A stretch of 46,352 nt of DNA from a virus (lineage: Duplodnaviria; Heunggongvirae; Uroviricota; Caudoviricetes). The notes beneath the pieces were generated by a model. The model worked only from the letters and a program-made list of their open reading frames with translations, searched no databases and was not told the origin of the DNA. The translations under genes and the position numbers were made by a program. The DNA is taken from the IMG/VR virus record IMGVR_UViG_3300035696_002535. One strand, written 5' to 3'. Below, in pieces: positions 9,362 through 46,352 of this stretch. Position 1 is the stretch's first letter. Each line of letters begins with the position of its first letter.

Positions 9362-10552
9362 TTATTCCACGTATATTTCCATATCCTTAAGCTTCAACTT
9401 CTCGACCAGGTACTTCTCCAGGTGGGCTCGGGATTTGGCCTTTTCCATGGATTTAAAGAAGTCTAGAGCAGACTGTACCTTACCCTCGTAAAGCTGAAAC
9501 ATATAAGACGGGTTAGTAAGCTTCTGGACCCGTAGGGCAAACTCTTTCCGGTTTTCCTTGGTACGTTCCTTGGTAAGGTGTTCGGCCACATCCAAGGTGT
9601 CCTTGTTGAGCTGCTCAATATAAGCCAAATAACTTGCTTTTACCTTTTCAACAAATGGGGTGAACTCTTTGAAATAGCTCAGAAACTCGTTTTCATCCCC
9701 CTCCATTACAAGGCTCACTAAAGAACGAAGGCTCCTTCCAGCACGATCTTTAAGATGGTGTATGGCAACATAAGAAGGATTTTTGACTTTGACTCTCTTG
9801 TAGCTTAGACCGTCCTCGTCAGGAACAGAGTAATCCACGGCCACAAAACCCTCTTCTAGAGTGGCCAAACCTTTTGCAAGTTCTACAAGATTATCCTGAT
9901 CTCTAAAATCCACCACACCTGGCAGTGGGACCCCAAGAACAGTTGACTGCTGCTGAAGTTCTGACAATAAAAGCTCTCTCCAGGTAGAGACTTCACGCAT
10001 CATTAATAGATGTAAACTTCTCTCTTTGTAGATAGTAACAACCCTATTCTCTGGAGCCGTAAGTTCGAAATAATAGGTATAGGCTTTGTCGACCTTTTTA
10101 AGAAAGTCTGGGTACCTTTCAGCCGTTTTATAAAATAGATCCCGAAAAGATATGGAAAACAGCCCCACATTGGATGAGTTCTCGATCACGCTCCTGGTCG
10201 ACATCAACCACTTGTCTTTGTAGTTGAAATAGGAAATCAAAGACCCATCCAGCTTTTGAAGCCCTACAGCTTTCAGGAAGTCGAAACCATCCGTGATCTG
10301 GGGGACTTCTTCATAGTTGTAGAAGCGTTTAAAGGGATAGGACACTATATTCCAAGTATCCTTCTCCAAGATCAGTCCACGGCACTCCATTACAATTGGG
10401 TGTGTCTTGGGAGAATCTGTTTGGCTGTACCCTAGGCAAACGAGATCATCATAGAGGTTGTATTCGATTCCTAGTTCATCCTTGAGTTTATTCAGGGCTT
10501 GTTCAGCTGGAAGGCCAAATGATCGAAGATATTCTTGGACTTTGAGGACCAT
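9362..10552 (-). CDS. rnl1: T4 Rnl1-family RNA ligase
   Basis: CRGLILE...SYPFKRFYN, KLDGSLI, FELTAPENRVV, EEGFV, RVKVKNPSY. Confidence 0.9.
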   Translation of the reverse strand: MVLKVQEYLRSFGLPAEQALNKLKDELGIEYNLYDDLVCLGYSQTDSPKTHPIVMECRGLILEKDTWNIVSYPFKRFYNYEEVPQITDGFDFLKAVGLQKLDGSLISYFNYKDKWLMSTRSVIENSSNVGLFSISFRDLFYKTAERYPDFLKKVDKAYTYYFELTAPENRVVTIYKERSLHLLMMREVSTWRELLLSELQQQSTVLGVPLPGVVDFRDQDNLVELAKGLATLEEGFVAVDYSVPDEDGLSYKRVKVKNPSYVAIHHLKDRAGRSLRSLVSLVMEGDENEFLSYFKEFTPFVEKVKASYLAYIEQLNKDTLDVAEHLTKERTKENRKEFALRVQKLTNPSYMFQLYEGKVQSALDFFKSMEKAKSRAHLEKYLVEKLKLKDMEIYVE

Positions 10553-16173: not shown

Positions 16174-16229
16174 TCTACCTGACGTACTCCCCCGACTAAA
16201 GTCGGGGGGTTCTTGTATCTCTCGCCCCA

Positions 16230-17420: not shown

Positions 17421-17522
17421 GCTATGCACTCTATATTCCTTTCATATAACTATAAATAGTAATACTAGGTTATTACAAATTGTTCGCTTTCATCCCACGG
17501 CTAAAGCCGTGGGCTTTCCCGC

Positions 17523-18572
17523 TCACAGATCGTAATCGGTTATAAGGATAGCCTCTATCGGCTTGATATCCCTCACCGCATCTGCAAGTAGTTTTAATCC
17601 ATTAAGAGTATCAATATGGTAAGTAGTTACATACTTCTTATCTCCTATGGTCTTCGCCCACTCCTCTGGAGGAGGGCATCCGCAATGTCCAGCCACTCTT
17701 ACACTTTGTTTACCTTCTGGATCCTCGTAAAGTTTTTTGGCTATATCGAGTGGAACAGGTCCACTCACCACCCAATATGTCCAAGCTCGTCTGAAATTGA
17801 AGCCGTTGAGGTATCCAATATATGAATAAGGAACTTCACTATACTCGTGAGGCTCCAATACTCCAGGTATATCTGCCATTAAAAGCTCTGCTTTTATGTA
17901 TTCGTCACACTCATGACGCCCAGCCAGATTGGGCATGTGATAATCCTTGCCGTCATTCTTTATATGCTCTTGGCAGATCCTACGGGCTTGGAGTTTAACA
18001 CATGAATGGTGCCGGAAAATTCTGGTAGGGACATAGACCAAATCCCCTTCTTTAATGACCAGGTCATCTTTGAGATCCTTTTTTTCAAGCCATTTGTTAT
18101 CTCTCTTAAGATAGTCTCCCCAGAAAAGATATTGTATAGCCTTGTTTTTAACAAAATATTCTTTTAAGTCTTTGACAGTTTCTCCTACAAAAAGCTCTGT
18201 GGTTACCTTAACGGTGTCAGTAGTCACTTTGGCGTCTGCATGGTTTTTTATAGTCCATCCTTTTCCACAAACGTCGCAAAGCTGATCATAAGGTACTGGG
18301 CCGACTCCGCAGCTACCGGTTATGCTTTTCTCTTTAAAAAGAGAGTGATATTCGTCCAAGGTTAAAACTTTATACTTTTTCAAATCTTCAGGGCACTCGG
18401 TAATGGCCAAGCAATTACCGCAGGTATCCAACCACCAAGAACCCATGACTACAAATTGGGACAATTTTTCGTCACGCTCATATCCAGCTATACCTCTCTC
18501 TTTGACGAGTTCATTCAAGCCCTTCAGAGAAGCTATTGCTTCCAGGATGCCTTCTTTAGAATTGTAATCCAT
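17523..18572 (-). CDS. hypothetical protein; last codons (D-L-stop) come from the IS left end
   Basis: ORF track; junction analysis. Confidence 0.8.
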   Translation of the reverse strand: MDYNSKEGILEAIASLKGLNELVKERGIAGYERDEKLSQFVVMGSWWLDTCGNCLAITECPEDLKKYKVLTLDEYHSLFKEKSITGSCGVGPVPYDQLCDVCGKGWTIKNHADAKVTTDTVKVTTELFVGETVKDLKEYFVKNKAIQYLFWGDYLKRDNKWLEKKDLKDDLVIKEGDLVYVPTRIFRHHSCVKLQARRICQEHIKNDGKDYHMPNLAGRHECDEYIKAELLMADIPGVLEPHEYSEVPYSYIGYLNGFNFRRAWTYWVVSGPVPLDIAKKLYEDPEGKQSVRVAGHCGCPPPEEWAKTIGDKKYVTTYHIDTLNGLKLLADAVRDIKPIEAILITDYDL

Positions 18573-21001: not shown

Positions 21002-21799
21002 TCATACCGCCTTTGTATGAATCTTATATTTCTTGTTAAAATCACGGATTATTATTCGGAACTCATTGGGTAACATTTTTATAACTGGAACTGCTAGGCT
21101 CTTCGGGATCTCATCATAGTAAGCCTGGGCTATAGCCCCTGAGATGCAAGCTTGGGTATCTGTATCCCCTCCTAAGGATATCGCCAGTCTTATGGTATCT
21201 TCATAATCATGCCCATCTAGAAAAGCGATAATCGCTTCTGGGACAGACTCCTGGCAGGCACTAGTGAAGTGGTAGTGAGGTCGAATTTGATCACAGGTTC
21301 TGTTTAAATCGTATCCAAAAGTCTTTGTCAGGATGCTACGGATCTCTTCCTTGGGAAGTTTTAAGCGTGCTAGGTATACAGCCAGAGCCGCTGCCTGAGC
21401 TCCTTTGATACCTTCTGGATGACCGTGGGTTACATGGGCGCTTCTTTCAGCTTCCTTAAGCACATCGTCCGGGGTCTCAAAAGCCCATCCTACTGGACTT
21501 ACTCTCATTGCACAGCCATTTCCAAAGCTGTTGATAGGCTCTATGGTGTCAGCTTTTACCCATTCTCGAAAAGCGGAACCGTAGCCTCTGTTTGGATACT
21601 TACGTGCATAGGATTTATACAAAGTGGCGTAGTCTCCACCGATGAGGAGCGCCTCAGAAGTGGCAACGGTTAAAACAGAATCATCAGTAAAGGTTGCCTT
21701 GAAAACATCATTCGTAACGAACATAGGAAAGTCATACTTTTTGAATCCTTGATGCTCAAAAATACTTCCTGCGACGTCTCCAATGATTCCGCCTATCAT
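21002..21799 (-). CDS. ADP-ribosylglycohydrolase (DraG/ARH family)
   Basis: GGIIGDVAGS, FTDDS, SFGNGCAMR, LGGDTDT. Confidence 0.9.
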   Translation of the reverse strand: MIGGIIGDVAGSIFEHQGFKKYDFPMFVTNDVFKATFTDDSVLTVATSEALLIGGDYATLYKSYARKYPNRGYGSAFREWVKADTIEPINSFGNGCAMRVSPVGWAFETPDDVLKEAERSAHVTHGHPEGIKGAQAAALAVYLARLKLPKEEIRSILTKTFGYDLNRTCDQIRPHYHFTSACQESVPEAIIAFLDGHDYEDTIRLAISLGGDTDTQACISGAIAQAYYDEIPKSLAVPVIKMLPNEFRIIIRDFNKKYKIHTKAV

Positions 21800-23298: not shown

Positions 23299-23991
23299 TT
23301 ATTCTTCATTATTACATTGGCAATGAGGATCCTTTTTCCAACAGCTTTTACAATAGTCCCCAGTAATCTCTGCTCTTTGTTCATCCGTAAGAGCAGCAAA
23401 AGCCTCTTTAACTATTGAGAGGTCCAAAGCACGGTTGCCTATGTTTTTAATAAACTCTTTAGGCACCTTATCCGTCATCCAAACACCGTTCTCTGATAAA
23501 TAAAACAAATAACCAGCCTCATCCATCTTTTTACTATCTATAACAAGCACGACTGGCTTCCCGTGTCTTGATCCTACTTTGTATGCTGTTTCATAATTTA
23601 ACGAAAGATGCACGAACTGTCTGCCTTTTTTCTCTAGACCTGTACTCCTTATAGCATCTAAAAACTTAATGGAAGTCCCGTGATAAAGTACGTCCGGGGG
23701 AACTTCAGGACTTAATCCAAGATCCACTTTCAGGGAATGCCCCTGGACTGCCCTTATCATCTGTTTATCTTCGCTGAAAGCGAATCTCTTTTTTTCGTTT
23801 GTATTGACAATCTCCTCTAATATGTCACGATTAAACGGCTCAGTACCACAAATTCCCTGAGCATTAGCCAGAGCAATCAGACTATTAACAGAAGCCCACC
23901 CGTTTGCATCCAGAGTGAGTCCTATGGCTTCTGGCTTATGTCGAAGGACTAGACTGAGAAATTTACTTCGAGATACTAATTCTGGCCTCAT
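23299..23991 (-). CDS. kptA: RNA 2'-phosphotransferase Tpt1/KptA with short Cys-rich C-terminal extension
   Basis: SKFLSLVLRHKP, KKRF, IRAVQGHS, LYHGT, FVHLS, NGVWMTD; start moved to MRPELV. Confidence 0.92.
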   Translation of the reverse strand: MRPELVSRSKFLSLVLRHKPEAIGLTLDANGWASVNSLIALANAQGICGTEPFNRDILEEIVNTNEKKRFAFSEDKQMIRAVQGHSLKVDLGLSPEVPPDVLYHGTSIKFLDAIRSTGLEKKGRQFVHLSLNYETAYKVGSRHGKPVVLVIDSKKMDEAGYLFYLSENGVWMTDKVPKEFIKNIGNRALDLSIVKEAFAALTDEQRAEITGDYCKSCWKKDPHCQCNNEE

Positions 23992-24002
23992 AAAAATCCC
24001 TG

Positions 24003-24335
24003 TTACCAAATGTCTCCCCATTTTTTTGTGAATAACGAAAAGACAGCTTTGATTATGTTTAACCCTACAAAAAACAAAATGGACCAAATAGTTCCAAATA
24101 CGGGATAATACAAAAGAAAAAATATTACCGCTGCAATTCCCGGTAACTTATCAACCCATTTTCCAAAAGAGGTACGTTCGGTTTCACGGTAATAATAACC
24201 TGTTTCGGTACCAAAAATAGATATATAGGGGGTATCATATTTTATCCAATGCCCCCCAGTTATTTTTGTCAGCAATGAGGCGGGAGTCCAATCATTTTTC
24301 CATAAGAACTTAAAAAGCTTTTTGATATTGTTCAT
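24003..24335 (-). CDS. membrane protein
   Basis: ORF track. Confidence 0.7.
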   Translation of the reverse strand: MNNIKKLFKFLWKNDWTPASLLTKITGGHWIKYDTPYISIFGTETGYYYRETERTSFGKWVDKLPGIAAVIFFLLYYPVFGTIWSILFFVGLNIIKAVFSLFTKKWGDIW

Positions 24336-25347: not shown

Positions 25348-25652
25348 GCAGACTCCTTGTTTCTAGATTTCTTGATCCACTTATCGAGCTTCCTATCTCT
25401 AACCGCCACAGATGTTTTTTCGTCTACATTTAGCTGATATAAAATGGAGCCAGCTGTGATGATGACATCCCAGGTCTCTTCGACAACATCAGCCAAAGCC
25501 TTGTTTTTATATGAGCATCCCGGGGCTTCCGTGAATGACAATACAGCCTCGGCTACTTCCCCACACTCCTCAGACAGTTTTAATGCCTTCTGAGTCAGAG
25601 ATTTTGGATCGTACTTGCTGGCTTCGAAAATCTTTTTCATTGTGTTCTTCAC
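25344..25652 (-). CDS. mazG: MazG-like NTP pyrophosphohydrolase
   Basis: KLSEECGEVAEA...VVEETWDVII; GTG start after AAGGAG. Confidence 0.8.
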   Translation of the reverse strand: MKNTMKKIFEASKYDPKSLTQKALKLSEECGEVAEAVLSFTEAPGCSYKNKALADVVEETWDVIITAGSILYQLNVDEKTSVAVRDRKLDKWIKKSRNKESA

Positions 25653-25676
25653 ACTGTCTCCTTGTGTACATAAACA

Positions 25677-25817
25677 AGGCTGCATTGTCCGGTTCCCGAT
25701 TCTCCACGGACCTTACCCCTTCTGCAACGTCCATGTTATCGTTGCGTTATAGGATCCAAACCGCTAACGACGGGGTTGTGCAATTTATGAATCGTATCTT
25801 CTACACTAATGCAGCCC
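25677..25817 (-). ncRNA. candidate structured RNA / cis-regulator with possible pseudoknot
   Basis: GGCUGCAUU/AAUGCAGCC, CGAUUC/GAAUCG, CAUGGAC/GUCCGUG, GUCGUU/AACGAU; ACCCC pairs with loop GGGGU. Confidence 0.6.
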
Positions 25818-25821
25818 ATTT

Positions 25822-26769
25822 TTAAACTGCGTTAATCTCTGCCGCAATGTCCTCTGCAAGTGATATCCCTTCGAAAGGTGGATAGTTTCCAAGGCCATCC
25901 GTTGCAGTCCCTAACTCTCGACCGACAGTACAAGAGTCTGTAACCCATATCTTACTGAAAGATGCGTTCTGAAATTTCTTCCACGCCTCGCAAGGAAGAA
26001 CCCCGTGAGTAGCGTAAGCACTAACGCTTGAGGCACCAGCATGAAACAAAGTCTCTTTACAGTTTATAAGAGTATCTCCATTTCGAATCATGTCATCAAT
26101 AATAATGATATTTGAACCTGTAACATCACGATGCCCTTCTTTGATCGTTACTACACGGTTCTCATCTTTTGTGCAAATTATGCAAGGATCAGGGAAAAAG
26201 GTATGAAATCTTTTTCTTGCCCCTTCGTCCGGGAAAGCGAAAATGTACTTCTTATGAATGTAGTGGAGTCTTCTAAAAAGTAAAGGTATAGCCGACTTTA
26301 GTTCTATGATAATCCCATCCGAATGAAAATGCTGAACAGCCAAAGAATGAATGTCATATATGATGAGCTTGGCAGGCCCACTTCCATGACAAGAAGGGAT
26401 AGCATTCAGCATGCGCATGAGCGTCTTTGCTGTTGCTATCTGCCCTGGTTCATCTACTCTCTCCATGGTGGCCGTAGGAAAATACGGCAGGAAGATTGTT
26501 AAAGATTTTGCACCATAATGAGGCAGAGCATACAGCACGCTTAACTGGGCAAAGAGGTTTTCGGGTTTCTCTAAACTCGCAAAAAAGAAAACATTAGATC
26601 CTTTAATTGCCGAGGGATCCTCAAACATTGTGTTAGGATAGTCATCTGCAAATTTTTTCCAACAAATTTCAGAGATACAGGTGTCTGGTGTATTTATGGT
26701 GTTTCTGAAAACTTTTACACCAAATTCTTTCAGCTCCGGGCACCACATCAGGGTCTTATTCATGATCAT
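25822..26769 (-). CDS. prs: ribose-phosphate pyrophosphokinase, class II (plant PRS3/4-like)
   Basis: WKKFADDYPN, LPYFPTATMERV, IYDIHSL, AFPDEGARKRF, IIDDMIRNGDTL, AYATHGV. Confidence 0.85.
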   Translation of the reverse strand: MIMNKTLMWCPELKEFGVKVFRNTINTPDTCISEICWKKFADDYPNTMFEDPSAIKGSNVFFFASLEKPENLFAQLSVLYALPHYGAKSLTIFLPYFPTATMERVDEPGQIATAKTLMRMLNAIPSCHGSGPAKLIIYDIHSLAVQHFHSDGIIIELKSAIPLLFRRLHYIHKKYIFAFPDEGARKRFHTFFPDPCIICTKDENRVVTIKEGHRDVTGSNIIIIDDMIRNGDTLINCKETLFHAGASSVSAYATHGVLPCEAWKKFQNASFSKIWVTDSCTVGRELGTATDGLGNYPPFEGISLAEDIAAEINAV

Positions 26770-26926: not shown

Positions 26927-27904
26927 CTATTTCCTTTCCTTGAGTACTTCCGTGTTCTCGATCCAGGCCGCGAAATAAGGTGGTGAGTCCTCCGTCTGCC
27001 TCAATATGATTAGGAAGGGTTCATCAAAAATGAACTTCCTCGGGGCTTCTCGACTGATCATAGCCGCGTAACGCATTGTCAACATAGCTTCTGACCGTAG
27101 CTTTGCACCGCATTCGTCAAGGTCAAACTTTATGAACTGGACAGCCTCGTCTATGTAATAGCCAGTTTCTTTATTCTTAGGTTTTTTGGATATCAAAACC
27201 TCATTCCCCTTGAGCTCATCAAAATGATGCTCAAGATCAAACGATATTTTTGGTATCTGAAGAGTTTCATTTTTACGTAAATCGGTAGCCTCATCTATCT
27301 CTAGATTAGCCAAAGTACGTTTAAAAGTGTCCCCCGGTTGAAGTCTAGCCAGAGTGATAAACTCTTTCTGCTTGGTTTTAATTGATAGGGTAAATTCTGA
27401 GGGGCTCTCGTAGTGAAGAATTTTTACCTGATGCGTAAGTTTTGTCAGGTGCTCTGACTTCACTTCCTCGATCCCGAAAGCTTCCACCGGTTTACCCATG
27501 AACTCAAAATAATCTATCTTCTCAAACTTTTGTTCGAACTCAAGGATCTTTAGAAGAAAGGCGTAAGCAATTATGTCTGTGGGCTCCAGATTGGAGAAAT
27601 TACATTTGGACATCTCATTGAAATTTTGCTTAAGGGTGCCCTTAATCTTATCCACGATCCCATTTTTACAGAGCCCCGCCAGAGCTATATAACATTTAGG
27701 GTCAAGGTCTGTTTTCTTGAATGACCGTTTGTTTAGCTCCTTCACTGCTGTCTCTGTAACTGTCTCTCCGTTAGGCAACACTATGTCCCCGCCAACGAAA
27801 TCACAAAGCTCATTCCAGGCAAGCTGCATGGTTGAGCAGTATATCAGGTTTTCACCTTTGGTGATCTTTTCATTAAGATGACAAGTTATTTTTGTGTTTT
27901 CCAT
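26927..27904 (-). CDS. serpin-fold protein
   Basis: LQIPKISF...QFIKFDLDECG...FIFDEPFLIILR. Confidence 0.6.
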   Translation of the reverse strand: MENTKITCHLNEKITKGENLIYCSTMQLAWNELCDFVGGDIVLPNGETVTETAVKELNKRSFKKTDLDPKCYIALAGLCKNGIVDKIKGTLKQNFNEMSKCNFSNLEPTDIIAYAFLLKILEFEQKFEKIDYFEFMGKPVEAFGIEEVKSEHLTKLTHQVKILHYESPSEFTLSIKTKQKEFITLARLQPGDTFKRTLANLEIDEATDLRKNETLQIPKISFDLEHHFDELKGNEVLISKKPKNKETGYYIDEAVQFIKFDLDECGAKLRSEAMLTMRYAAMISREAPRKFIFDEPFLIILRQTEDSPPYFAAWIENTEVLKERK

Positions 27905-31235: not shown

Positions 31236-31265
31236 AAAGCCCCCGAATAAACTCGGGGGCTTTTT
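31236..31265. terminator. bidirectional rho-independent terminator
   Basis: aaagcccccga/tcgggggcttt stem between convergent genes. Confidence 0.8.
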
Positions 31266-32643: not shown

Positions 32644-32684
32644 AGTGAATTACTTTCCGGCTAGGTGCTCAACAGCAGCATTAC

Positions 32685-32985
32685 GATCTGTGAGCGGGAA
32701 AGCCCACGGCTTTAGCCGTGGGATGAAAGCGAACAACAAAAACAAACCTTGACATTTTCTTAAAATCAGCGTATATTATAATATTAAGTCTATCAAGTGA
32801 GTGAAGCGGAAGAAGCTGACTCTTAAATCCTTGATGTAGGATCTCTGATAGAAGCATAAAATTTTGTCTCTTTTCTATACTCAGACTCGGATTGGAGTCT
32901 GTTGAGAGGTCCAGGCCAAGGCCTTATGGCGTTGGCAGGGACAAGACTCATAGAAGCCCCCGACTTTAGTCGGGGGAGCAGTCAC
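32685..32985 (+). mobile_element. 301-bp non-autonomous IS200/IS605 mini-element inserted after TTAC
   Basis: LE identical to element 16179-17531; RE hairpin ending TCAC; relic tnpB tail ILRLGLESV...RSPRL*. Confidence 0.85.
32749..32777 (+). promoter_or_regulatory. near-consensus sigma70 promoter TTGACA-17-TATATT inside the mini-element
   Basis: Read directly. Confidence 0.8.
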
Positions 32986-43333: not shown

Positions 43334-43627
43334 TTAAATAGACAAAAATCCTTCTGGATTGTATGTTGGTTTCGCACCAACATGTTCTATACGACGCTCC
43401 CAATTTGATCCCAAAAAATAAAATCTAAGACTGTCGGTCTTGTCGTCTATTATGTTTATTAAATCATGCTTCAATACTGGCCACTGCGAAAAATCTATTA
43501 AACATTCAAACACAGAATTTTGTACTCGTTGCCCGAAATCTTCACACTTCTTAGATATCTCACGTAATCTTCGTTTTCCTTGTGTGGTTTCAGTATTTAC
43601 ATCATAGGCTATTAAGACCATTATCAT
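43334..43627 (-). CDS. cas2: CRISPR-associated Cas2 (type I-C-like)
   Basis: VLIAYDV...RRLR...GQRVQNSVFEC...DSLRFY. Confidence 0.95.
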   Translation of the reverse strand: MIMVLIAYDVNTETTQGKRRLREISKKCEDFGQRVQNSVFECLIDFSQWPVLKHDLINIIDDKTDSLRFYFLGSNWERRIEHVGAKPTYNPEGFLSI

Positions 43628-43636
43628 ACTTAGCCC

Positions 43637-44668
43637 CTATTTCCATACAAACGGCGGATAGGCATTTAAATCTCCTCTTAGATATCTTGCAAACAAACAA
43701 GCTTGTATGTACGGTAATAGTCCTATTGATACCTTTTCTTCAATAAAAGGATGCTCAAGCTCTTCTTTTTTCCTTTCTTGGTATGTCTTTAAAACTTCCT
43801 TTCTAGTCCCTGTATCCATAAGGACGGCACCCGTTTCGGTTTTTTTAAATCCCTCTGGTCTAACCTGCTGACGGTTAATAAGAGTGAGTACTAGTCTATC
43901 GGCTAAAAATGGTCTTAACTCTTCCATAATGTCTAATGCCAGACTAGGCCTACCGGGGCGATCAGCATGAAGAAATCCTGATTGAGGATCAAGTCCAACT
44001 GATTCACATGCCCCTATGCAATCGTGCGCAAGCAAAGTATATGTAAAAGACAGAAGAGCATTTACATTATCTAAGGGCGGCCTACGGCTCCTTTCCTTAA
44101 AATAAAAATTATCTTTTTGGGTAATAATAAGCCTATCAAAAACTGAAAAGTATGTATGTCCTGCTTGGCCTTCTTTGCCACGAATAGAATCAAGGCTGGT
44201 TTCGTGTCTTGTTTCCCTAACAATATTTTTTAAGCAGTCAGAACATCTGGTTAAAGCATCCTTAGTCTCTATACCATCTGTTTCTCTGGCCGCTCTCAAC
44301 AGAACCGTACGACTATTGAGAAGTTTTCCTAAAACAAAAGTTTTTGCTATGTCGATTGTTTTCTGTATGTTGTCTGACCGTCTGTGCTGCTCTTTGCGAA
44401 GAAGGATGTTGCCAGAAACTGGACCTGTCACTCTAGATAAAAACTCCCCCGACTCTGTAAGAAATGACAGCGTCACTCCTTTTTCAGAGCACATCTTCAT
44501 GAGAGGGGGTGAAAACCCTACTCCTCCGATACAAACAATGCCCTCAAGATTAGCCACAGGAACCTGTATCTTCGTTTCTCTTTCTACCTTAACTACAACA
44601 GTTTCTCCTTCTTTCGACAAGTAAGATCCGGGCATTGTGACATAAAGAGTGTTTAAAAGATGTCTCAT
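43637..44668 (-). CDS. cas1: CRISPR-associated Cas1 (type I-C-like)
   Basis: LLNTLYVT, RGKEG, RSRRPPLDNVNALLSF, GFLHADRPGRPSLALDIMEE. Confidence 0.96.
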   Translation of the reverse strand: MRHLLNTLYVTMPGSYLSKEGETVVVKVERETKIQVPVANLEGIVCIGGVGFSPPLMKMCSEKGVTLSFLTESGEFLSRVTGPVSGNILLRKEQHRRSDNIQKTIDIAKTFVLGKLLNSRTVLLRAARETDGIETKDALTRCSDCLKNIVRETRHETSLDSIRGKEGQAGHTYFSVFDRLIITQKDNFYFKERSRRPPLDNVNALLSFTYTLLAHDCIGACESVGLDPQSGFLHADRPGRPSLALDIMEELRPFLADRLVLTLINRQQVRPEGFKKTETGAVLMDTGTRKEVLKTYQERKKEELEHPFIEEKVSIGLLPYIQACLFARYLRGDLNAYPPFVWK

Positions 44669-44671
44669 GAT

Positions 44672-45325
44672 TTACTCCTGATAAATATATTTTTCTAGAT
44701 ACTCTTTTGCATCTTTTTTAAATATTTTTGGCATACACACACCTATCATAGAACAGCTATCACAATGCTTTTCGTAGTGTGTTGGAGAAGTGATACCAGA
44801 GTCTATTATTTTGTGAAGTCGTTGAGACGCTTTTACTGTCTCTTTTCGCAATAATTCACTAAACTCAATCTCATGTCTTTTATGTTCAGAGCCATAATAT
44901 AGTGCTCCTTTTTCTATGCTTATTTTCAACATTTCCTCTAAGCACAGAGCTTGAGCACACAGTTGAACTTCGTCACTACTGTTGTTTTTAGGTTTACCTC
45001 TTTTATATTCTACCGGAAATGGTGACCACAGTCCTTTTCTATTTGCAAGTTCTATTCCATTAAGATCTGAAAAATGAAATTCAACTACATCGGCTACACC
45101 AGTAAGCCCTAAAACAAATGATTTTAATTTAAGTCCATGAGTAATCAACACGCCATTTCGAGCTTCGTCTCCTTGCTCGTGTACATTCGCATGAAGAACT
45201 CGTCCTTCAGAAGTTAGTCTATTTTCTATCCATATTTGTTCTACATGTATCAAACAGCATTGTCGTTCACAAAATAAAAGGTGCTGTAGAGCAGAGATAG
45301 GAAGAAAATCAGATTCTAAAAACAT
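44672..45325 (-). CDS. cas4: CRISPR-associated Cas4 (type I-C-like)
   Basis: ISALQHLLFCERQ, GVADVVE, PVEYKRGK, QLCAQALCLEE, CDSCS...C. Confidence 0.95.
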   Translation of the reverse strand: MFLESDFLPISALQHLLFCERQCCLIHVEQIWIENRLTSEGRVLHANVHEQGDEARNGVLITHGLKLKSFVLGLTGVADVVEFHFSDLNGIELANRKGLWSPFPVEYKRGKPKNNSSDEVQLCAQALCLEEMLKISIEKGALYYGSEHKRHEIEFSELLRKETVKASQRLHKIIDSGITSPTHYEKHCDSCSMIGVCMPKIFKKDAKEYLEKYIYQE

Positions 45326-45370
45326 AAAGTTTAATCCTTTTAAATTTTATAAATAGTTGGCATTAATAAC

Positions 45371-46352
45371 TTTTTCAGCCCCACTTAGGTGTGAGGAGTA
45401 ACTATCCCGATATTTGACGGGACGCGACCATTCCACTTTCAACCCTCACCTATATGTGAGGAGTAACATTGACATACCACCCAGACCCAGAACCCTTGGC
45501 CTTTCAACCCTCACCTATATGTGAGGAGTAACCGTTCCGGACTGACTTATCAGCTCGCAATGTGGCACTTTCAACCCTCACTTATGTGTGAGGAGTAACT
45601 AATTGGTTTTTGCAGGCTGCGGGTGCATCAAATCACTTTCAACCCTCACCTGTATGTGAGGAGTAACTCAACTCTTGCAATCTCCTTCTTGCCATTCTCA
45701 ACACTTTCAACCCTCACCTGTATGTGAGGAGTAACCTTAACAACATCGGCGGTGTCTACAAATCCTGGGCTTTCAACCCTCACCTGTATGTGAGGAGTAA
45801 CATACGATGACGCGTCATCTGTTGTAGACGTGGCCTTTCAACCCTCACCTGTATGTGAGGAGTAACGAATCATTCAATAGCTTTAAAAACCGAGCTCTAA
45901 CTTTCAACCCTCACCTGTATGTGAGGAGTAACATGGGAAGCCAACGGAGATGTGATACTCACCAAACTTTCAACCCTCACCTGTATGTGAGGAGTAACCA
46001 AAAGGAGAAGACCGATGCCGAATGTCTGTAAACTTTCAACCCTCACCTGTATGTGAGGAGTAACGTTTTTCTCTTGCAATTTTTGTTTCCTGCTCTACTT
46101 TCAACCCTCACCTGTATGTGAGGAGTAACATGGATGCACTTCGTGAGTTCCTGGAGAAGAACCTTTCAACCCTCACCTGTATGTGAGGAGTAACGGGAGA
46201 AGGTGTTCCACCAAATTCACCATCCACCCTTTCAACCCTCACCTGTATGTGAGGAGTAACGGCAATGGAAACGCGGCAGTGAATCCTCCGAATGCTTTCA
46301 ACCCTCACCTGTATGTGAGGAGTAACCCGACTGGCCTGCCACAATGTGACTA
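45371..46352 (-). CRISPR. CRISPR array: 32-nt repeat GTTACTCCTCACATACAGGTGAGGGTTGAAAG; 15 repeats, 14 complete spacers (33-36 nt) + 1 partial; truncated by window end
   Basis: Repeat starts on + strand: 45371 (degenerate), 45436, 45501, 45568, 45636, 45704, 45770, 45835, 45901, 45967, 46033, 46098, 46163, 46229, 46295; hairpin CCTCAC/GTGAGG; ...GAAAG 3' end and degenerate end set the orientation. Confidence 0.98.

What the first reader, a model, noticed from the sequence alone, without database searches (positions are those of the whole stretch)
25652..25817. Pseudoknotted RNA between prs and mazG with an SD-sequestering alternative hairpin: candidate nucleotide-sensing riboswitch
Seen on the minus strand: P1 GGCUGCAUU/AAUGCAGCC (9 bp perfect), P2 CGAUUC/GAAUCG, hairpin GUCGUU.../AACGAU and hairpin CAUGGAC/GUCCGUG. 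The loop GGGGU of the last hairpin can pair with upstream ACCCC. Just 3', CCUUGU/ACAAGG can fold over most of the mazG SD (AAGGAG) and shares CC with P1, so the two compete. The segment ACAACCCCGU recalls, from memory, the NAD+-I (nadA motif) junction, but the rest does not fit that consensus. Inference: ligand-controlled mazG translation, or a free ncRNA.
Basis: partly seen in the sequence, partly recalled or inferred. Interest (0 to 1): 0.7.

Follow-up and report, generated by a model that had tools for sequence, protein, structure and literature searches.

The report
tRNA-derived phage RNA, rebuilt elbow
The gap between two phage genes encodes a folded RNA of about 140 bases from a widespread phage family found in no catalogue searched; it looks like a tRNA whose corner has been rebuilt, it is not a switch for the next gene, and its job is unknown.

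Summary
The RNA is real; the riboswitch reading is not supported. Window 25817-25677 (minus strand) belongs to a family with no Rfam 15 match. I found 59 distinct members (plus about 7 more) on contigs classed as viral or phage-like, in genomes of 38 to 735 kb, one strong copy per genome. All 59 can fold as a four-way cloverleaf. The last hairpin follows the tRNA T-arm pattern with an enlarged 15-nt loop. In 23 members the first arm has a tRNA D-stem flanked by U8, R9, A14 and R26, which I did not select for. The anticodon arm is replaced by a variable domain, often pseudoknotted, and there is no CCA end. Two near-invariant loops can kiss where the tRNA elbow lies. 22 of 59 lie within 100 nt of a tRNA or tmRNA gene; the downstream proteins are unrelated; mazG homologues lack the RNA. 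Best reading: a stand-alone, non-decoding tRNA derivative acting in trans on a conserved host factor. The mechanism is inferred and expression untested.

The parts
25677..25817 (-). Whole non-coding RNA, about 141 nt, four-way cloverleaf
   Evidence: Covariance model score 92 bits, single copy in window (the window is in the training set); cloverleaf fit in 59 of 59 members, 112-176 nt, median 139
25808..25816 (-). P1 5' strand (acceptor-stem position); last base doubles as the U8 equivalent
25678..25686 (-). P1 3' strand; no CCA follows
   Evidence: CCA right after P1 in 1 of 59
25802..25808 (-). U8-R9 linker, P2 5' strand and A14 (tRNA D-arm signature)
   Evidence: In 23 members with this stem: U8 23/23, R9 23/23, A14 21/23; same start in 23 of 362 phage tRNAs
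25784..25795 (-). Conserved block A in the enlarged D-like loop; 25794-25791 is the kissing strand
   Evidence: Present upstream in 54 distinct hits of a search that did not contain it; frequencies
25777..25782 (-). P2 3' strand and R26
   Evidence: R26 23/23; P2 own-partner score 9.6 against 8.4, 0 of 2000, the weakest helix
25715..25776 (-). Variable domain replacing the anticodon arm: P3 (25776-25772 with 25719-25715), short P4, P5 (25745-25740 with 25729-25724)
   Evidence: P3 13.8 against 9.7, 0 of 2000; P5 compensatory changes in L131 and L135
25730..25754 (-). Second, subfamily-level pseudoknot: 25754-25752 with the P5 loop bases 25732-25730
   Evidence: 3 bp or more in 76% of 46 members against 56% for cross partners, 0 of 2000 permutations
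25687..25711 (-). P6, T-arm-like 5-bp stem (25711-25707 with 25691-25687) with a 15-nt near-invariant loop (25706-25692); 25700-25697 is the kissing strand
   Evidence: 5 of 5 pairs with double-sided changes; outer three pairs intact in 51 of 54 hits not selected for them
25658..25679 (-). Local anti-SD hairpin and SD of mazG; not part of the conserved element
   Evidence: Hairpin probability 0.02 or less; not seen in L131 or L135
25344..25652 (-). MazG-like NTP pyrophosphatase, 102 aa from GTG; neighbour only
   Evidence: homologues lack the RNA
25822..26769 (-). Ribose-phosphate pyrophosphokinase-like gene; upstream neighbour whose relatives led to the first homologues

Best explanation
A stand-alone phage non-coding RNA descended from a tRNA gene. 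SHOWN BY COMPARISON: a conserved four-way cloverleaf with tRNA D-arm and T-arm signature bases, a longer acceptor-like stem, no anticodon arm, no CCA, one strong copy per genome, often in a tRNA slot. INFERRED: it is made from a nearby promoter or inside a tRNA or gene operon and trimmed to P1 by host RNases. It folds into a tRNA-like L shape. The D-loop/T-loop contact is enlarged into a 4-bp kissing helix, with the G-C pair in it standing where G19-C56 stands in tRNA. All the near-invariant bases lie at this rebuilt elbow, so that is the working surface. No phage protein partner was found and carriers span 23-72% GC, so the partner is most likely a conserved host factor that handles tRNA (translation apparatus, tRNA surveillance or an anti-phage tRNA nuclease), bound as a non-chargeable, non-decoding decoy or modulator. 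Odds: conserved structured RNA 0.97; stand-alone rather than cis switch 0.85; tRNA-derived 0.8; this mechanism about 0.4.
For: Homologues reached by four routes: neighbouring proteins, 5' block (32, 33, 35), 3' loop (36, 53, 56), and BLAST to the 735-kb record LR756501 (65, 108, 112: 70.8 bits, not in the training set). Covariation. tRNA signature: compared with the T-loop consensus in PMC7912444. Context: 22 of 59 within 100 nt of a tRNA or tmRNA, 33 within 1 kb, 32 of these on the same strand; random positions in control viral loci 0.6% within 300 nt. Promoter-like boxes just upstream in 6 members. One strong match in each of 23 viral records. No full member in 1203 bacterial genomes searched. 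Proteins shared by the small carriers are only DNA methylases and endonucleases.
Against: No expression data and no binding data. The kissing helix is nearly invariant (one G-C to G-U change, one member breaks a pair), so it has no compensatory support. The invariance of the 3' loop is inflated because most members were found with it; seven found without it also carry it. 36 of 59 members lack the clear D-stem signature. 26 of 59 have no tRNA called within 1 kb, including the window. A rebuilt elbow may not be read as tRNA by any host factor. Members were not corrected for relatedness.
Confidence: 0.42

Rival explanations
1. The invariant loops form a catalytic centre or a small-molecule pocket: a ribozyme (self-cleaving, or acting on tRNA ends) or a free aptamer that sponges a nucleotide signal, built on a tRNA scaffold.
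For: About 25 near-invariant bases are packed into two loops while all stems vary. One or two pseudoknots. No dedicated protein partner found. Often abuts tRNA genes.
Against: No Rfam ribozyme or riboswitch match. Retained tRNA signature bases fit shape mimicry. One copy per genome does not suit a processing ribozyme for many tRNAs. No activity could be tested.
Confidence: 0.22
2. A processing or stabilising punctuation mark: the tRNA-like fold attracts RNase P, RNase E or tRNase Z, or blocks exonucleases, and so cuts or protects the polycistronic transcript. The RNA itself has no trans role.
For: Sits between cistrons or tRNAs with 0-20 nt spacers in many members and is first after a promoter in some. 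P1 and P6 are adjacent like acceptor and T stems.
Against: The T-loop that these enzymes read is the part most altered. P1 is mostly 7-14 bp and has no CCA. Real tRNAs next door already punctuate. It does not explain the invariant loops.
Confidence: 0.15
3. A ligand-controlled riboswitch for mazG, with P1 competing against an SD-covering hairpin.
For: In the window the RNA ends about 25 nt before the start codon, and an anti-SD hairpin shares two bases with P1. About 9 of 59 members have an SD-led ORF starting within 50 nt of P6.
Against: Downstream genes are unrelated or are tRNAs. mazG homologues lack the RNA. The anti-SD hairpin is not conserved and has probability 0.02 or less. No Rfam riboswitch hit.
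Confidence: 0.04
4. A structural or packaged RNA that binds a phage protein too diverged to be seen by BLAST (virion, packaging motor or replication role).
For: Found in phage-like contigs and not in the bacterial genomes searched; single copy.
Against: Present in unrelated genomes of 38 to 735 kb with no shared protein found besides methylases and endonucleases; gained or lost between close relatives' gene slots.
Confidence: 0.08

Closest known systems
Canonical tRNA (Rfam RF00005), especially phage tRNA-His, -Gln, -Asp, -Glu and -Arg with a GUGU D-stem
   Same: Cloverleaf order; U8, R9, A14, R26 and the D-stem in 23 members; 5-bp T-like stem ending G53-C61, then U54 ... A58-N59-Y60; place and strand in tRNA clusters
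   Different: 15-nt T-like loop and a D-like loop of about 20 nt; no anticodon arm; longer terminal stem; no CCA; not called by ARAGORN or RF00005
Phage T4 stable RNAs species 1 (rnaC, 139 nt) and species 2 (rnaD, 119 nt)
   Same: Similar size, phage tRNA cluster, unknown function; rnaC ends in a tRNA T arm
   Different: No match to this family's model; rnaC has a canonical 7-nt T-loop and neither conserved block
Bacterial and phage Y RNAs (YrlA; PMC4201824)
   Same: Non-decoding RNA with D- and T-arm resemblance, also found in phages
   Different: YrlA is permuted, is encoded next to Ro60 and carries a Ro60-binding motif; here the arm order is that of tRNA and TROVE is in only 4 of 19 near-complete carriers
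GOLLD and ROOL RNAs (PMC12286853)
   Same: Structured non-coding RNAs that occur in phages, often near tRNAs (association from my own knowledge)
   Different: Much larger; no Rfam match here
Interdigitated T-loop RNAs: L1 stalk, T-box stem I, RNase P (PMC4810234)
   Same: Two conserved purine-rich loops brought together by a short helix
   Different: No consistent pair of U-N-N-R-A pentaloops; no T-box stem I or RNase P core. Resemblance only

Membership tests
NAD+-I (nadA) or any Rfam riboswitch | Match to the family model | tested here: not met
   No hit at E up to 10 on the window region; none on members
cis riboswitch | Consistently upstream of functionally related protein genes | tested here: not met
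   Unrelated ORFs or tRNAs follow; mazG homologues lack it
cis riboswitch | Conserved expression platform | tested here: not met
   Anti-SD hairpin seen clearly only in the window; probability 0.02 or less
cis riboswitch | Ligand-dependent structural change | not testable with these tools
   Needs in-line probing
canonical tRNA | Cloverleaf with D-arm and T-arm signature bases | tested here: met
   T-arm pattern in nearly all members (partly by search design); full D-arm signature in 23 of 59
canonical tRNA | 7-nt T-loop, 7-nt anticodon loop on a 5-bp stem, 7-bp acceptor stem with NCCA | tested here: not met
   15-nt loop, variable domain of about 40-90 nt, P1 mostly 7-14 bp, CCA in 1 of 59
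Y RNA (YrlA) | Encoded next to a Ro60/TROVE gene | tested here: not met
   TROVE in 6 of 46 records, 4 of 19 near-complete
Y RNA (YrlA) | Permuted tRNA module with Ro60-binding stem motif | tested here: not met
   Arm order is tRNA-like; no Rfam hit; features from PMC4201824
T4 rnaC / rnaD | Sequence or model similarity | tested here: not met
   Model R1 finds nothing in the T4 tRNA region, locus L361
Interdigitated double T-loop / T-box | Two pentaloop T-loops; UGGN bulge free to pair with tRNA NCCA | tested here: inconclusive
   The P6 loop starts U-G-G-A, but that U maps to U54 paired with A58; pentaloop pattern inconsistent among members
Self-cleaving ribozymes | Match to a known class | tested here: not met
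   No Rfam hit
Self-cleaving ribozymes | Cleavage in vitro | not testable with these tools
   Needs a co-transcriptional cleavage assay

The most novel reading that the evidence does not exclude
A tRNA scaffold has been turned into a new functional RNA class: the enlarged elbow is an active site or ligand pocket (ribozyme, or RNA sponge for a host immune or stress nucleotide) used by unrelated phages across bacterial phyla with no phage protein partner.
Probability: 0.2. Interest if true: 0.92.

Novelty: new variant of a known kind. Interest (0 to 1): 0.66.

Why it matters
Phage tRNA clusters hold stable RNAs whose function is still unknown, such as T4 species 1 and 2. This family is small (about 140 nt), easy to synthesise, and shared by phages of 38 to 735 kb. 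It keeps about 25 near-invariant loop bases, which gives a direct target for probing, cleavage assays, pull-downs and structure. It would be a natural case of a tRNA whose most conserved region, the elbow, was rebuilt and then held fixed. It also matters for annotation: in one relative the RNA was absorbed into a predicted protein gene.

Tried and rejected
No whole genome is held for the window. Protein-based scans of viral contigs found no relatives. A P1-only pattern gave chance hits, later used as control loci. BLAST of the window RNA against named phages gave nothing; short-query BLAST found one true member (LR756501) and no cultured phage; Microcystis phage MaAM05 matched only 13 loop bases. 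The 5'-block scan of GTDB gave 19 hits that all look like chance matches in coding DNA; the loop pattern gave 5 hits in 1203 genomes, none extending beyond the loop. This means not found in those searched, not absent. No RNA holder was listed for the locus, which is no evidence either way. Ro60 partner rejected. Group I intron, RNase P, SAM-I, FMN and cobalamin resemblances were recalled from memory and dropped for lack of an Rfam hit. The P6 loop pairs with tRNAs somewhat better than with shuffles (8 bp or more in 87 of 363 against 25); I read this as an echo of T-arm ancestry, not as antisense targeting. RNAalifold on MAFFT alignments recovered only P6 because the other helices shift in register, so P1-P3 were tested by own-versus-cross partner permutation. 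Nine literature searches found no description; the 10,006 candidate viral RNAs of PMC10690425 could not be checked because no supplement is held. Translation of the segment is unlikely: the only overlapping start (25685) is not conserved in L131, and the public gene call starts at 25652.

Full report
Setting. The window is a phage-like contig with most genes on the minus strand. It carries cas1, cas4 and a CRISPR array at its end, an RNA ligase, a Tpt1 and an ADP-ribosylglycohydrolase. The element fills the 169-nt gap between a prs-like gene (stop at 25822) and a MazG-like gene (GTG at 25652). The same sequence is in two ENA contigs, so it is not an assembly artefact. Rfam 15 gives nothing at gathering score or at E up to 10, and ARAGORN calls no tRNA.

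Finding relatives. The MazG homologues examined have no such leader. Two prs neighbours do carry the RNA, in front of other genes: L131 at 83% identity and L135. A pattern from the 5' block found three more in metagenomes and viral contigs, all with the 3' loop that was not in the query. A pattern from the 3' loop alone gave 91 stretches. Among all loci held, 54 distinct hits of that pattern carry the 5' block upstream, and 51 of them pair all three outer stem positions, which the pattern did not ask for. The working set is 59 distinct sequences. The model built from it adds about six more, plus a member in the 735-kb record LR756501 at 70.8 bits. Each of 23 viral records of 38 to 578 kb has one strong match. 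None was found in 1203 bacterial genomes from three phyla.

Structure. All 59 fit a four-way junction P1, P2, P3, P6 of 112-176 nt. P6 shows double-sided changes at all five pairs; members were partly chosen for having this stem, so the unbiased figure is the 51 of 54 above. P1, P2 and P3 pair better with their own partner than with another member's (20.3 vs 11.2, 9.6 vs 8.4, 13.8 vs 9.7; each 0 of 2000 permutations). Relatedness was not corrected for, but it raises the cross scores and so works against the test. A second pseudoknot between the P5 loop and the strand before P5 is supported in a subfamily. Four bases of the 5' block can pair with four bases of the P6 loop in 59 of 59, but these bases hardly vary, so this kiss is inferred and has no covariation support.

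tRNA ancestry. The order of arms is that of tRNA. In 23 members selected only for a GUGU D-type stem, the unselected flanking bases are U8 in 23, a purine at 9 in 23, A14 in 21 and a purine at 26 in 23. The same arm start occurs in 23 of 362 tRNAs called in the loci held, mostly His, Gln, Asp, Glu, Arg, Gly and Trp. P6 is a 5-bp stem ending in G-C, then U, and it closes with A, any base, a pyrimidine and C. That is the G53-C61, U54, A58, N59, Y60 pattern described in PMC7912444. The loop reads as a T-loop with six bases inserted after U54 and two after position 57; this mapping is my inference. On it, the C56 equivalent pairs with a G in the D-like loop. The anticodon arm is replaced by a variable domain, P1 is mostly 7-14 bp, and CCA follows in 1 of 59. 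So it looks like a tRNA in shape and descent but fails membership as a decoding tRNA.

Context. 22 of 59 lie within 100 nt of a tRNA or tmRNA gene, 27 within 300 nt and 33 within 1 kb, 32 of these on the same strand. Random positions in 120 control viral loci are within 300 nt of one 0.6% of the time. Several sit between two tRNAs; six have promoter-like boxes just upstream. The 21 downstream proteins called are unrelated to each other. This excludes a mazG riboswitch as the family's function. The window's copy is one of the 26 with no tRNA called within 1 kb and is probably co-transcribed with prs and mazG. With P1 formed, the mazG SD is predicted to be open.

Mechanism. Shown: conservation, secondary structure, tRNA signature, context and copy number. 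Inferred: release as a discrete RNA, an L-shaped fold, the elbow as working surface, and a host partner. TROVE is in only 4 of 19 near-complete carriers, so it is not a Y RNA. Small carriers share only methylases and endonucleases. I give 0.42 to a non-decoding tRNA mimic acting on a host tRNA-handling factor, 0.22 to a ribozyme or free aptamer, 0.15 to a processing mark, 0.08 to a phage-protein partner and 0.04 to the riboswitch; the rest is unassigned.

Novelty. There is no Rfam match for the window or for about 30 member loci, no similarity to T4 rnaC or rnaD, and no description in nine literature searches or in two huge-phage papers read. One large set of candidate viral RNAs could not be checked. 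Earlier notes of this scan describe other tRNA-shaped phage RNAs, but none matched by sequence or by the loop word. Non-decoding tRNA-like phage RNAs are a known kind. A family in which the T-loop itself is enlarged and fixed is, as far as I could search, a new variant of it.

Noticed in passing
window 43334-46329: CRISPR array (15 repeats of about 30 nt, period 65-68 nt, running to the window end) beside cas4 (44672-45325), cas1 (43637-44668) and a 97-aa ORF that may be cas2; no effector gene identified among the ORFs scanned.
   Followed up: partly
window 17480-17536 and 32680-32736; 16186-16208, 31237-31259, 32954-32976: A perfect 57-nt inverted pair 15 kb apart, each holding a hairpin, and three copies of a second GC-rich palindrome; they resemble IS200/IS605-type ends or terminators.
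   Followed up: no
window 1653, 8557, 10560, 20519, 30331, 33194, 40740, 43285: Recurrent intergenic motif that reads like a two-box promoter on the minus strand; probably a phage promoter class.
   Followed up: no
window 9362-10552, 21002-21799, 23299-24087, 25822-26769, 26927-27904: RNA-repair and NAD-related genes: T4-type RNA ligase, ADP-ribosylglycohydrolase, Tpt1/KptA, a prs whose distant hits are named PRS4-like, and a serpin-like gene; serpin, prs, Tpt1 and the hydrolase keep their order in L131.
   Followed up: partly
L135 6363-6755: The public gene call (130 aa) swallows the RNA; the SD-led protein after the RNA is 77 aa.
   Followed up: yes
L194 3987-4108 (also L213, L234): A copy with the 5' block but no intact 3' loop inside a tRNA cluster (24 bits): possibly a decayed member.
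   Followed up: partly
L167 3416-3576 (also L168): A structured non-coding stretch with both conserved words but a longer direct pairing between them (14.5 bits): distant relative or another RNA.
   Followed up: partly
L335 4118-4142 and L343 661-686: The P6 hairpin with an intact stem but a missing or altered 5' block: possible divergent subfamily.
   Followed up: partly
L252, L253, L334: An extra hairpin inserted in the D-like loop just before the conserved block, so that site tolerates cargo.
   Followed up: partly
L121 1347-1742 and L122 6001-6405: MazG homologues lie directly beside tRNA genes in related phages, so the window's slot may be a former tRNA neighbourhood.
   Followed up: no
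G013 C1 107870-107999: A second weak model match (22 bits) in a 482-kb phage record.
   Followed up: no
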